The translations under genes and the position numbers were made by a program. The notes under the pieces are model-generated. The model was not told the DNA's origin. It saw nothing but the letters and a program-made list of their open reading frames with translations, and ran no database searches. From assembly GCF_009914755.1 (NCBI RefSeq), contig NC_060931.1: a stretch of 64,000 nt of DNA; one strand, 5' to 3'. This DNA comes from the human T2T-CHM13v2.0 reference genome, Homo sapiens. Shown one piece after another: positions 40,499 to 46,103 of the stretch (the first letter of the stretch is position 1; each line of letters starts with the position of its first letter).

Positions 40499-41568
40499 GT
40501 AAGTTCTCAGCGAAATCCACGACCTTTTCCTTTATCTTCTGGACTCTCAATGTGACTGATGAAAGTTACCACATGCTCTGCAGGGGGAAATGATTTAGCA
40601 TGTGTTACTACATCTTAATCACATCTTTGTAAAGCCAGGAGCATTTTGAAAGTCACGTTACAGACATTGTTTAAACATAGTCTGTATTTACCAAAGTATA
40701 GGACATTGTATCATCTCATATTAATTAGTTAGTTGGCTCAAAATTAGTGCTAATGACTTAGTAATTCAGTGATTTCTGTTAGCTTTAAAACCTTTATTTC
40801 AGAACTATTTCACCTCTTGGTTTTCATTTTTGCTGTGTGTCACTGCCTGCCGGCTGCTAATTTATTAACTCCCAGTGAATCATGTGTCCTGTGAAGGGAC
40901 TGAATATTAGTGGCAAATTATGTTGATGATTTGTATTTTGAATAAATAGTTTGAATACATAGAACATTAAGCTTGTATACATTTTGAAAATAGTATTTTA
41001 GTATTCTACTGTGTCATAGTCACAATGATTGGATATATATTGAATTTATATGTACTTTAAGTTTTTATATGTTTATGGTCTTTAGCATTCTAACGTGCAA
41101 TTGTATATCTGTTAAGTCTTTTTTTTTTTTCAAGATTAGACTCTGATTTATTGAGGCATCTGTTTGATGCCACATTAAGTGGCCCAGGCTTTGTGTAGGG
41201 GTTGAGGTTAAAGCAGGAAGAAGTGTGGTGAGAGGCAGGGGTACCAGGATTAGGTTGGAATACCTGGGGGTGCTCTGAGGCTCCCCTAGTTTCCCTGGTC
41301 TTGGCCGGCTGTGCTGCTGGCCTGGGCATCTGATGGGCCTGCAAGGGTGGTCCAGGGGCTAGGGCAAGGACTTTGGAGTCACGCTGTTGGCTTTGAATCC
41401 AGACTCCTACACTTGGTAGCTGTGAACTCTCCATGTGTCAGGGACCTGCAGAACTGAGCTCTGTCTGAGCCACGTTCCATCCAGGCACTGCGGATCCATC
41501 CAGAGGGGCACTGCCTCAGTTTGCTCACTATTCACTGCCTTCTCAAGCAGACGCTTGTCTCCTTCTAG

Positions 41569-41700
41569 GCCCTCACAATCCAGTGGAGGAGACGAAACTC
41601 AGCTGCCTCTGTCCCTCTGGGCACGCCTCATGCCAGGTGCATCTGTGGACAGGGGCCATGCTCCTGGGCTTCCAAAGTTGGAGAAAGCTGCCAGGCTCAG
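41569..41700 (+). other. Candidate 132-nt exon of the chimeric transcript (antisense to the retro-insert)
   Basis: gtctccttctag|GCCCTC...GGCTCAG|gtgggt. Size and sequence agree with my recollection of an exon in the paralogous subtelomeric lncRNA family (unverified). Confidence 0.6.
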
Positions 41701-44700
41701 GTGGGTACATCACAGCAGCTGCTGCCCTCTGGACACAGTGACAAAAGAACACTCTGGGCCTGGAGCCCTGGTCTGGGGCATTGGGCAAGGCTGTTGCACT
41801 TCTCTGAGCCCATTTCCCCATCTGGAAAGTGCGCTGATTGTATCTCCCTGTGGGCACTGAGGGCTCAGTGTTAGTTTGAGAGCCAGTATCTGGGGTTTGG
41901 GCTGTAATTCCCCATCAGCCCCATAGCTGCGGGGAACCAGGGACTTTGTTGGGATTACCCTAGGCATCAGTCTAGCTTCCTGCCCCTGGCTTGGGCTCAG
42001 CACCTGAAGTAGTCTAGGGGGTAGGTGGTCCTGGTGGGGGCTGGGGCTTTTCCCCAGACTGAGCTCACACCCAGAGCCAGAAATCTTGGTGCCTGCTCTG
42101 GGCAAAGGTGCCAGCCTGTGCGACAAGAGCGTAACTCCGTCTCCAAAACAAAACAAAAAACCTTGCATCATTTCAAGGGGCTCACACCTCCCTAAGGGCC
42201 TGGTAATTGGCTGGCTCTGACCTGCATTTGGCCCCGAGGGTGTAGGTAACACCCCACCTTACCTGGTTTCTTCCTGCCAGGGCCAACTTCAGACCTCAGG
42301 ACTTTGCAGCCTATTCCACCTCCCCTTTGGCCAGCCTTGAGCCCTTGTGGGTCCGGCACTTTTTCCAGGCTGTCTCCTGGTTGTCCTTCTGCCTCGAGGC
42401 CCGGCTCATGCTACTCCCCCTCCCACTCACCAAGACCCACAAGGACCACTCCACACCCAGCTCAGCCCCATCCCCTCAAATAGTCCTTTCTCTTTCCTCA
42501 GGTGGCCAGGTGCATATCTTGGTGTGAGGACCTTCACTGTATCTGGGAAGGCCCTACTGGTCACCTTGGTGACAGAGACCAAGGCATTTACCTGATATGA
42601 GTGTCTTGGTTCACTGTCTACATGGCTAGGGAGGGAGTCAATAATAGGCTTTTCACTTGCTGCAAGGGCCAGTTCTCCTGGCCCCATGGCTCTAGGGACG
42701 GAGGATGCTGCAGGAGATGCACCGCTTACTTCCCAGCTGAGGACTGTGGGTCATCTCAGGGTGATTTCACAGTCCCCACATGCCCCACCCCCTCAGCTCT
42801 GCAAATACCAAGCAGTGCAACCTGCCGAGGGGATGATGGGCTCGAGAGTGCCCAGGTAGTGCCCAGAGTGCCCTTGGCAGGCCCCTCACCTAGCTGCTTC
42901 CACAGCTCTGTAGCAAGAGTTCTAACCTTTTTTGACCATGAAGCCTGCTGAGAATAAGAGCTGTGGACTGTTTTCCCAGAAAGGCATGTACATGCTCTCC
43001 ACACAAAACCTTTCATCGTGGCCAAGCACAGTGGCTCATGTAATCCCAGAACTTTGGGAGGCGGAGCCAGTCGGATCACCTGAGGTCAGGAGTTCAAGAC
43101 CAGCCTGCCCAACATGGCGAAACCCTGTCTCTACTAAAAATACAAAAAATTAGCCAGGCGTGGTGGGAGCCACCTGTAATCCCAGCTCCTCCGGAGGCTG
43201 AGGCAGGAGAATCACTTGAACCCGGGAGGCGCAGGTTGTAGTGTGGTGAGATCACGCCACTGCACTCCAGCCTGGGCGACAGGAGCAAAACTCTGTCTCA
43301 AAAAACAAAACAAAACAAAACCTTGCATCCTTTCAGGGGGCTCACACCTCCCTAAGGGCCCGGTAATTAAACCCCCTGGGCCTGAGGGTGAGAAACTTTG
43401 TCTCAGTTCTTCCCTGAGTGATCAGCCCAGGGGTAAGGAAGGAGAAGCCAGAAAGCAGGACCCATGAGAAGGGCCCCCTCCTGGAGTTTGAGGCCCACTC
43501 CCTCCTGCCCCTGCCTCTCCTCTGTCCAGGACTCCTCCCTGCTCTGCCCCACTCCTGGGGCTGTAACCATGGGGAGCTGTGGTTTTCTACAGGCCCCTGG
43601 GCACAAAGTGGGCAGGCTCACCTGGAGGCGATCAGAGTAACATGGCAGGAAGTGAGGGGGAAAGCCGCCCTGGAACTGCGCCTCTCTGCCCCCTGATGTC
43701 ACTGGCATGCACTCCTCCCTCCCGTCACTCAGGCAGTGGCATGAGTTCCATGTGAGCGCTGGCCTGCTCCCTCTGCTGCCTCTTTTTTTTCTTGGGGCTA
43801 CCATAACACTTGCCCTTCCCCAGCCCTGCCAACCTGGTGGGACATTGGGCTTCCCTCTCACAGGGTCCTGGGGACAGGCACAGGCCCATCCTTTATCATA
43901 CCCACAGAGAGACCCTTTTTTTCTTCAGGATCTGGGGAGCAGCCAGGTTCCATGAGTTAAATGCAGATCTGAACCAAGCTGAGATTAGGGTACACACTCT
44001 CCTCTACTGAAAAGTAGCTAGAGATTCCAACTAGGTGAGAAGAAGAGTGGGGCAGAGGCAGACCAGACAAGGACTGATCACCTGGAAAAAGCCGGTCATC
44101 AAAGGTCTTGGCAAATGCTGGGTGCAGTGGCTCACTCCTGTAATCCCAGCACTTTGAGGGGCTGAGACAGGTGGACTACTTGAGGCAAGGAGTTCGAGTC
44201 CAGCCTGGGCAACATGGCAAAACCCCATCTCTACTAGAAATACAAAAATTAGCTAGGCATGCTACACTCCTGTAATCCCAGCTACTCAGGAGGCTGAGGC
44301 AGGAGAAATCACTTGAACTGGGGAGGCAGAGGTCGAAGTGAGCTGAGATTGTGCCCCTGCACTCCAGTCTGGGAGACAGAGTGAAACTGGGCCTCAAAAA
44401 AAAAAAAAAAAAGAATATGGCCTTGGCAGAGAGGGGCCAGCCCGGCAGTGCCTTCCCTTGGGTTTCTCCTGGGTAGGCCTCTGCCATGAGGAGGCACTTC
44501 CTTCTGCCTGTCCATGGCCCACAGCAATGGAATGTCTGCTTCTGGGGGTTGGGTGGGAGACCGCTGGCAGAACTGGAAACCTTCAGGTGGGTTTTTTTTG
44601 TTTTGTTTTGTTTTCGAGATGGAGCGTCGCTCTGTTAGCCAGGCTGGAGTGCAGTGGTGGAATCTCAGTTCACTGCAACCTCCGCCCCCCGGGTTCAAAC

Positions 44701-44927
44701 AATTCTCCTGTCTCAGCCACCTGAGTAGCTGAGATTACAGGCATGTGCCACCATGCCCGGCTAATTTTTGTATTTTTTGTATAGATGGCATTTTGCCATG
44801 TTGGCCAGGCTGGTCTCGAACTCCTGACCTCAAGTGATCCACCCTCCTCGGCCTCCCAAAGTGCCGGGATTACAGGCATGAGCCACTGAGCCCAGCCCCT
44901 TCAGGGGGGTTTTGGGGCTCCACTACA

Positions 44928-45350
44928 ATACTAGTTTCCTGTGGCTGCTGCAACAAATTACCACACACTTAGTGACTTAAAACAACCAAAATGCATTCCC
45001 TTACAGGTCTGAAGGCCAGAATTCTACAGTAAGTCCTACTCAGTCAAGGTGGGAGCAGGGTCAGTGGCTTCCGAGGCTCTGCGGGAGAATCCGTTTCCTG
45101 GCCGTGGAGGTGGCCTGCACTCCTCAGCTTGTGCTGCCCGTCTCGAATGACTGGAGTTTCCTGCTTCTGTCACTACACCTCCCACCCTCTCCATCACCTG
45201 CTCTGCTCTTATAAGGATCCGAGTGAGTACATCAACCCCAAAAGCCAAAGACCCTTAACTTCATTATATTTGCAAAGCCCCTTTTGCCATATAAGGTCAT
45301 GTTCACCAGTTCCCGGGATTAGGATATGGGCATCTTGGGGGCATCAGCCT
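44928..45350 (-). mobile_element. MLT1 (MaLR) LTR
   Basis: tagtttcctgtggctgctgcaacaaattaccacacacttagtgacttaaaacaac...ataaggtcatgttcaccagttcccgggattagga. Confidence 0.8.
45007..45222 (+). other. Candidate 216-nt exon exonised from an MLT1 LTR
   Basis: cattcccttacag|GTCTGA...ATCCGA|gtgagt. Confidence 0.55.
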
Positions 45351-45482
45351 GCTACAGCTAGGCTGCAAAACTATTACACCCTCCTGGTGTTTCAATGATT
45401 GGGAGAAAAAAGGTTGGCATTTTTTGCTTAGGGGTCCCTCTTAACCTTGTATCTGTAAGGTCTGGGGTCCCTCTTAACCTTG

Positions 45483-45785
45483 TGTTTTTGTTTTTGTTTT
45501 TTTGAGGTGGAGTCTTGCTCTGTCATCCAGGCTGGCAGTGGCGTGGTCTTGGCTCACTGCAACGTCTGCCTCCTGGGTTCAAGTGATTCTCCTGCCTCAG
45601 CCTCCTGAGTAGCTGGGACTACAGGCGCCTGCCACCATGCCCTGCTGTTTTGTATTTTTGGTAGGGACGGGGTGGGGGTGGGGCTAGGGAGGGGGGTTTT
45701 GGCTATGTTGCCCTGAGCTCAAAGCGATCTGCCTGCCTCTGCTGCCAAAGTGCTGGGATTACAGGCCTGCACCACTGCACCTGGC
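45483..45785 (-). mobile_element. Alu forming the 5' end of the 4.7-kb retro-insert
   Basis: The Alu head lies 2 nt from the right TSD and in the same orientation as the distant poly(A). Confidence 0.85.
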
Positions 45786-46103
45786 TGCTGTAAAGTCTTA
45801 TTTCACACAGCTGAGACGTGTTTTAGGAAGTTTGCTAAAAGACCCCTGGAGACCTCCTCGTTGTGACCTCCCTGTTATTGTGTTTAATTTGATTGAACTT
45901 TTCTGCCCTCCTGCTTTTCAGCTTCTCTAATAGTCTCCCATTAAACCAATTCTAAGAACCACCAAAAAAGGGAAATTTTTTTTGAAAGCAGTAAAATGAT
46001 ATGGACTGTTAGAATGTAAAATACATGAAATAAGTCATTATATGTTAGTGCTGCTCTGACATAGGGACGTATTATTGAGAATCAACTTTTGCTTGATTTT
46101 CAG

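What the first reader, a model, noticed from the sequence alone, without database searches (positions are those of the whole stretch)
41109..45799. Unexplained 4.7-kb retroposed insertion inside the GTF2I intron, headed by an Alu
Seen: on the - strand, AATAAA (41152-41147) lies 16 nt before a poly(A) (41130-41119). An 11/12 direct repeat ctgt(t/a)aagtctt brackets 4.67 kb, and the empty site TCTT/AT resembles the L1 endonuclease TTTT/AA motif. The interval is GC-rich against AT-rich flanks, is not L1 or SVA, and contains several Alus and an MLT1 LTR. It begins at an Alu head and retains - strand splice-like signals (CAG|GTAAGG near 42262). Inference: this is a retrocopy of an unspliced or long-3'UTR Pol II transcript, or an exceptionally long Alu-headed 3' transduction. 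It later donated two antisense exons.
Basis: partly seen in the sequence, partly recalled or inferred. Interest (0 to 1): 0.7.

Follow-up and report, generated by a model that had tools for sequence, protein, structure and literature searches.

The report
Disguised ANKRD54 retrocopy in GTF2I duplicate
The insertion is the leftover of a spliced ANKRD54 messenger RNA that was copied back into an intron of a duplicated GTF2I gene, likely lost its coding part later by recombination between two Alu repeats, and may preserve a long tail of that RNA that human chromosome 22 no longer holds; it is an ordinary kind of event with an unusually well-recorded history.

Summary
In detail: poly(A), AATAAA and 12-bp direct repeats are there, and three GTF2I loci show the empty site with one repeat copy. 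The source is ANKRD54 on chr22: window 42606-45466, without three later Alus, matches its 3' UTR and downstream DNA at 76-81%. A paralog at chr10:46.03 Mb shares the Alu head and right junction and still holds seven ANKRD54 exons joined without introns (exon 4 skipped). So this is a processed retrocopy, not an unspliced RNA and not an Alu 3' transduction. In the window's lineage 1.3 kb with the coding part is gone, and the 'head' Alu is a hybrid of two Alus, which points to Alu-Alu recombination. The copy runs about 2.7 kb past the gene's present proximal AATAAA, which is non-canonical in 6 of 6 copies read. The last 1.4 kb has no source in the genome by three searches; it was most likely lost from chr22. 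Divergence suggests about 40-55 million years. Segmental duplication then spread pieces to at least 29 loci. How the original Alu joined is unresolved. The two antisense exons were not shown.

The parts
41109..41120 (.). Target-site duplication, poly(A) side
   Evidence: single copy in 3 of 3 GTF2I loci
41119..41130 (-). Poly(A) tail of the retrocopy (first two T shared with the repeat)
   Evidence: T-run at the same place in 18 copies including the window
41147..41152 (-). Distal AATAAA poly(A) signal, 16 nt before the tail
41131..42605 (-). Orphan 3' end of the retrocopied RNA, about 1.36 kb without the later duplication; no source found in the genome; inferred to be lost ANKRD54 downstream DNA
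42108..42223 (+). Later 113-bp insertion copied from the tail and flank of the Alu at 43019 (43267-43368); absent from 3 of 3 older copies that cover the site
   Evidence: (D14, D16)
42606..45466 (-). ANKRD54 distal 3' UTR and read-through DNA, matching chr22:38,291,099-38,293,026 at 76-81%
   Evidence: gene named
43019..43323 (+). Secondary Alu; absent at chr22 and in the chr7:56.28, 66.29 and 66.99 Mb copies
44114..44418 (+). Secondary Alu; absent at chr22, present in 6 of 6 older copies that cover both flanks
44592..44900 (-). Secondary Alu; absent at chr22, present in 6 of 6 older copies that cover both flanks
44910..45350 (-). LTR-like repeat (MLT1 label recalled, ends approximate) inherited from the ANKRD54 3' UTR
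44992..44997 (-). Degenerate proximal poly(A) signal: AATGCA here, AATACA or AATACC in five other copies, AATAAA at chr22:38,292,511-506
45467..45483 (.). Deletion junction: start of the second unit of a short tandem duplication, ending at the T-rich Alu insertion site; 1,299 bp of ANKRD54 sequence that chr10 holds is missing from here on
45480..45787 (-). Hybrid Alu: tail arm from a second Alu, head arm from the original 5' Alu shared with chr10
45788..45799 (.). Target-site duplication, 5' side; target reads TCTT/AT
46103..46169 (+). Next GTF2I-like exon of the host duplicate (reads WNNRIADLRKQIEELSERKY; ends approximate)
   Evidence: parental exons match Pfam GTF2I PF02946 (E 8e-24 for the following exon); this short window piece alone had no Pfam match

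Best explanation
The insertion is the remnant of a spliced ANKRD54 mRNA copy sitting between 12-bp direct repeats in an intron of a GTF2I duplicate, likely written by L1 reverse transcriptase some 40-55 million years ago and likely stripped of its coding part later by recombination between two Alus. Steps: (1) shown: GTF2I has the empty site. (2) shown in the chr10 paralog: a full-length sense Alu, then ANKRD54 from about codon 30, exons 1-2-3-5-6-7-8 joined, then the 3' UTR. (3) shown: the copy continues past the proximal AATAAA; inferred: it came from a long 3' UTR isoform ending at the AATAAA at 41152, whose last 1.4 kb was later lost from chr22. (4) inferred: a second Alu inserted in the UTR in the same orientation and recombined with the head Alu, deleting 1.3 kb after the chr10 copy had split off. 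(5) shown: more Alus inserted and pieces now lie at 29 or more loci. How the head Alu joined is open: co-insertion by template switch or RNA joining about 40%, insertion into the tail of an earlier Alu about 35%, later Alu insertion into the 5' repeat about 25%.
For: Empty site in 3 of 3 GTF2I loci. chr22 is the only long non-paralog, non-Alu match. Exon 1 there is 100% human ANKRD54. chr10 copy: seven colinear blocks at 76-87% whose ends fall at the chr22 splice sites, with a 24-residue gap for exon 4, stops and frameshifts; it is the only copy with the coding part (4 of 4 candidates scored). A private 24-nt Alu-head motif has 19 of 19 genome matches in paralogs of this insert, chr10 included. 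Hybrid Alu: at non-CpG sites where chr10 differs from the majority of 56 local Alus, five paralogs follow chr10 at 1 of 19 tail-arm sites and 8 of 13 head-arm sites; Fisher p = 6e-4 after dropping 2 sites that follow neither. Flank tree: chr10 lies outside a clade of all 8 deletion-bearing copies used, support 95/94. K2P chr22-window 0.17-0.20, GTF2I-window 0.14-0.17, chr10-window 0.13-0.16.
Against: No copy with both Alus before recombination was found. The chr10 copy lacks the 3' end and left repeat, so no single locus shows the whole original insert. The origin of the 1.4-kb orphan is inferred from absence; no other primate genome could be read. The genome search is seeded and could miss a source at about 75-80% identity, although it found chr22 at 80%. 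The retrocopy's divergence from chr22 is equal to or slightly above the GTF2I-duplicate divergence, which needs rate differences or near-simultaneous events. The tree rests on 716 columns. The 15 nt between the Alu tail and exon 1 at chr10 fit neither ANKRD54 nor the repeat well.
Confidence: 0.9

Rival explanations
1. Same retrocopy, but the 3' 1.4 kb comes from a different RNA: reverse transcription began on RNA X at its poly(A) and switched to an ANKRD54 read-through RNA, or two inserts were later fused by a deletion.
For: No chr22 match for 41131-42605 within 38,276,001-38,306,000 by sensitive blastn and nhmmer; a sharp junction with no A-tract.
Against: No gene X was found in three genome searches with all candidates scored, whereas a real 3' UTR would normally persist. 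GC content is the same on both sides (0.57 and 0.55). chr22 has a 13-bp local duplicate about 50 bp left of the junction, 0 of 200 shuffles, a weak hint that the chr22 side was rearranged. The junction is not a splice donor, since the bases after AAG are shared with the copies.
Confidence: 0.2
2. An Alu-driven 3' transduction or an unspliced transcript.
For: In the window alone an Alu abuts intronless genomic-like sequence, a poly(A) and one pair of repeats.
Against: No Alu lies upstream of the block at chr22; chr10 holds spliced exons between Alu and UTR; the window's Alu is a hybrid.
Confidence: 0.03
3. A DNA-level duplication of chr22 sequence into the GTF2I duplicate.
For: The region is a mosaic segmental duplication, and the later spread was DNA-level.
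Against: Intron loss, poly(A), 12-bp repeats and the empty parental site.
Confidence: 0.02
4. The 1.3 kb was lost by a non-homologous deletion, and the tail arm was changed by gene conversion from another Alu.
For: No two-Alu intermediate was found; Alu gene conversion is known (recalled).
Against: Needs two events at one spot. The UTR breaks exactly at a TTTT/AA-type site followed by an Alu tail, which is what a second Alu insertion leaves.
Confidence: 0.08

Closest known systems
L1-made processed pseudogenes (retrocopies); primate peak about 40 Mya per PMC5470649 (passages read)
   Same: Spliced, 5'-truncated, poly(A), direct repeats, endonuclease-type site, disabled frame, age in the range.
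   Different: Coding part deleted in every copy found except chr10; UTR runs about 2.7 kb past the parent's proximal signal; multiplied by segmental duplication.
Alu/L1 and other 5' RNA chimeric insertions (10.1101/2025.02.02.635956; passages and the Alu section read: 113 Alu/LINE-1 chimeras, mostly full-length, 88.5% sense)
   Same: Full-length sense Alu with tail at the 5' end, one pair of repeats around both parts.
   Different: The 3' partner is an mRNA, not L1; co-insertion is not shown and nested insertion remains possible.
Alu recombination-mediated deletion (PMC2041999; passages read)
   Same: One chimeric Alu from two Alus, intervening DNA lost, no matching repeats of its own.
   Different: Ancient; the two-Alu state is not seen, only the earlier one-Alu state at chr10.
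GTF2IP13 / FAM157 / CICP / SEPT14P subtelomeric duplication families (PMC6226469; section 8 and passages read)
   Same: Same host duplicon type: chr7 origin, copies at 7p12.3 and at 1p, 3q, 5q, 16q, 19p ends.
   Different: That paper's main text has no occurrence of ANKRD54 or 'retro'; its supplements were not read.
ANKRD54P1 (name and 10q11 location recalled, from no call)
   Same: Probably the chr10:46.03 Mb copy found here.
   Different: A link to the GTF2I duplicon and to the 28 other loci was not found in print by my searches.

Membership tests
Processed pseudogene (L1 retrocopy) | Introns of the parent removed | tested here: met
   chr10 paralog, seven blocks joined at splice sites; the window itself keeps only last-exon and downstream sequence
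Processed pseudogene (L1 retrocopy) | Poly(A) tail after a poly(A) signal, not genomic at the target | tested here: met
   the source of this end was not found, so a genomic A-tract there is not excluded
Processed pseudogene (L1 retrocopy) | Target-site duplication with empty ancestral site | tested here: met
Processed pseudogene (L1 retrocopy) | L1 endonuclease-type target (TTTT/AA-like) | tested here: met
   TCTT/AT in GTF2I; motif per 10.1101/2025.02.02.635956
Processed pseudogene (L1 retrocopy) | Disabled reading frame | tested here: met
   stops and frameshifts at chr10; no tblastn match in the window
Alu 3' transduction | Donor Alu directly upstream of the carried sequence at the source locus | tested here: not met
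Alu recombination-mediated deletion | Single chimeric Alu with arms of two origins | tested here: met
Alu recombination-mediated deletion | Intervening sequence present in a related copy | tested here: met
   1,299 bp at chr10
Alu recombination-mediated deletion | Pre-recombination allele with both Alus | tested here: inconclusive
   none among human copies; other primates not available
Chimeric co-insertion (5' Alu + mRNA) | Full-length sense Alu and mRNA inside one pair of repeats | tested here: met
   (right repeat seen at chr10, left repeat in other copies)
Chimeric co-insertion (5' Alu + mRNA) | Both parts appear together in orthologs, with no Alu-only or retrocopy-only state | not testable with these tools
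   no primate genomes; no such state among the human flank matches
Exonised retrocopy (antisense exons) | Spliced transcripts using plus-strand sites in the insert | not testable with these tools
   motifs only; no RefSeq exon in the table given

The most novel reading that the evidence does not exclude
The retrocopy is a fossil of an extinct ANKRD54 3' end: early simians made an exon-4-skipped mRNA with a 3.8-kb UTR because the LTR poly(A) signal read AATACA, and the gene later came to use AATAAA in the LTR and lost the distal signal with 1.4 kb of DNA. That lost sequence now survives only in the GTF2I duplicon, in about 19 copies, many of them subtelomeric, where it may supply lncRNA exons.
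Probability: 0.35. Interest if true: 0.5.

Novelty: new member of a known kind. Interest (0 to 1): 0.33.

Why it matters
It explains an unannotated block of a widely duplicated human segment and orders its history: retroposition, chr10 split, Alu-Alu deletion, more Alus, subtelomeric spread. It shows how a retrocopy can pass as an Alu transduction once recombination removes its exons. The junctions are presence/absence markers for dating GTF2I duplicates in primates. If the orphan end is ANKRD54's, it is a testable record of 3' UTR shortening onto an LTR signal. No function is shown.

Tried and rejected
Source of 41131-42605: genome searches with two window pieces and one older copy returned only paralogs, 35 bp of the chr22 junction and one 52-bp hit on chr4 that was not followed; blastn word 7 and nhmmer on 30 kb of chr22 were blank. 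Splicing to a distal exon was rejected because no donor lies at the junction. The idea that GTF2I's own Alu explains the repeats was rejected: it lies about 35 bp upstream with its own repeat. A donor for the head Alu elsewhere: none by the private motif; best local full-length matches were only 76%. Direction of the AATAAA/AATACA change is unresolved: 31 of 41 family copies read AATAAA and 10 of 41 AATACA, and a change on the shared stem by chance has a rough probability of 0.1-0.15 (my estimate). Literature: ANKRD54P1 0 papers; ANKRD54 + retrocopy 0; ANKRD54 + pseudogene 2 and ANKRD54 + polyadenylation 3, unrelated by title and abstract start; two or more of GTF2IP13, ANKRD54, FAM157A, GTF2IP20 gave only PMC6226469. 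Searches were background searches, seen as listings. No supplements were read; pseudogene catalogues there may list this. The young paralogs beyond their first 4.9 kb, the chr5 copy and chr10's further flanks were not read.
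Full report
Observation. Searches with the two flanks found three loci at 72-82% identity on chr7. One of them has an exon matching Pfam GTF2I; I take it as GTF2I, and the individual gene names of the three are recalled. In all three the flanks join across one CCGTAAAGTCTT, and an unrelated Alu sits about 35 bp upstream. The repeats are therefore a true target-site duplication at TCTT/AT.

Source. Searches with the insert gave many paralogs and one other long match, chr22:38,291,099-38,293,026 at 76-81% (only 40 of 524 and 40 of 16,573 candidates were scored, most of them Alus). 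The block is the distal part of the last exon and the DNA beyond it for a minus-strand gene whose exon 1 is 100% identical to human ANKRD54. A seven-transmembrane receptor gene faces it (GALR3 by recall). The three internal Alus of the window are absent at chr22.

The telling paralog. A copy at chr10:46.03 Mb has the same right junction and Alu head. A private 24-nt motif of that head has 19 of 19 genome matches in paralogs of this insert, chr10 among them. Between the Alu and the point where the window's homology stops, chr10 holds 1,299 more bases: ANKRD54 exons 1 (from about codon 30), 2, 3, 5, 6, 7 and 8, joined at the splice sites, exon 4 skipped, with stops and frameshifts. It is the only copy with this part. 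The founding insert was thus a spliced, 5'-truncated mRNA of about 4.6 kb plus a 0.3-kb Alu (sum of parts, my estimate).

The deletion. In the window the UTR breaks at a T-rich site and runs into an Alu tail. This Alu follows the local Alu majority in its tail arm and chr10 in its head arm: 1 of 19 against 8 of 13 non-CpG sites, using 5 of the 8 deletion-bearing heads, p = 6e-4 with two sites dropped. A tree of the right flank puts chr10 outside all 8 deletion-bearing copies, support 95/94 on 716 columns. The simplest reading is a second Alu in the UTR and recombination with the head Alu, as described for chimeric Alus in PMC2041999 (passages read). The two-Alu state was not found, so this step is inferred. 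By recalled diagnostic letters the head looks AluJ-like and the tail arm AluS-like; this was not tested.

The long 3' end. ANKRD54 has AATAAA inside the LTR-like repeat about 1.07 kb after its stop; that this is the signal used today is recalled. Six of six retrocopy copies that aligned there read AATACA, AATACC or AATGCA (14 sequences were examined, the rest do not cover the site), and the copy runs on for about 1.4 kb that match chr22 and a further 1.36 kb that do not. In the repeat family 31 of 41 motif matches read AATAAA and 10 AATACA, so the direction of change is open. The last 1.36 kb has no source. The junction carries no A-tract and no splice donor, GC content is continuous, and chr22 has a 13-bp local duplicate beside it. 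Loss from chr22 is the best reading (about 70-75%); a second RNA is the rival.

Age and spread. K2P distances are 0.17-0.20 from chr22, 0.14-0.17 from GTF2I and 0.13-0.16 from chr10. At 3% per 10 million years (PMC6226469) 0.17 gives about 57 million years, and at 2.2e-9 per site per year (recalled) about 39. This fits stem simians and the retrocopy peak near 40 Mya (PMC5470649, passages). Insertion and GTF2I duplication cannot be separated in time. Parts of the insert lie at 29 loci by my count, a lower bound: 17 at 95-100% identity, many at chromosome ends, 11 at 82-90% on chr7 and chr11, and chr10. The host duplicon family is described in PMC6226469 (section 8), whose main text does not name ANKRD54.

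The head Alu. A full-length sense Alu inside the same repeats fits the Alu chimeras of 10.1101/2025.02.02.635956, but insertion into an earlier Alu's tail gives the same picture. The 15 nt after the tail at chr10 resemble both ANKRD54 and the repeat only weakly. Human sequence cannot decide.

Verdict. A real feature, now explained: a processed ANKRD54 pseudogene remnant. Every step is a known kind of event. My searches did not find this link in print, but the chr10 copy is probably annotated already (recalled) and no supplements were read. The antisense exons remain unshown. Interest 0.33.

Noticed in passing
L031:640-905 (chr10:46,029,640-905): An exon-like stretch that looks like a CUB domain (cubilin-like, by recall) lies left of the break where the chr10 copy's ANKRD54 homology ends (about L031:1927), with LTR-like DNA between.
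   Followed up: no
L032 (chr1:223.177 Mb): This young copy lost window 41281-45480, joining the orphan end directly to the hybrid Alu tail; it could be mistaken for an Alu with a 150-bp transduction.
   Followed up: partly
L028-L030 (chr7:77.45, 68.06, 67.71 Mb): These three copies break at window 43320 and join an inverted piece of window 39760-39931, at the site where the young copies carry the 43019 Alu.
   Followed up: partly
L025, L026 (chr7:66.29, 66.99 Mb): A further deletion of window 43405-45432 with a tail-less Alu at the junction.
   Followed up: partly
L027 (chr7:56.28 Mb): Two Alus in tandem at the head, each preceded by the GGGTCCCTCT unit; the left repeat and poly(A) are deleted.
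   Followed up: partly
window 40566-40977: GTF2I intron pieces of 310-390 bp have isolated copies at chr7:144.45 Mb (90%) and chr18:32.83 Mb (94%).
   Followed up: no
window 26110-26504 and 30655-31044: A 390-bp direct repeat at 82% identity outside the Alu-covered stretches.
   Followed up: no
L022:4774-4920 (chr22:38,290,774-920): A 42-bp tandem repeat with identical units just left of the homology junction.
   Followed up: no
window 41570-41700: Plausible plus-strand exon: pyrimidine-rich acceptor seen by eye, CAG|GTGGGT donor, open in all three frames. Use not shown.
   Followed up: partly
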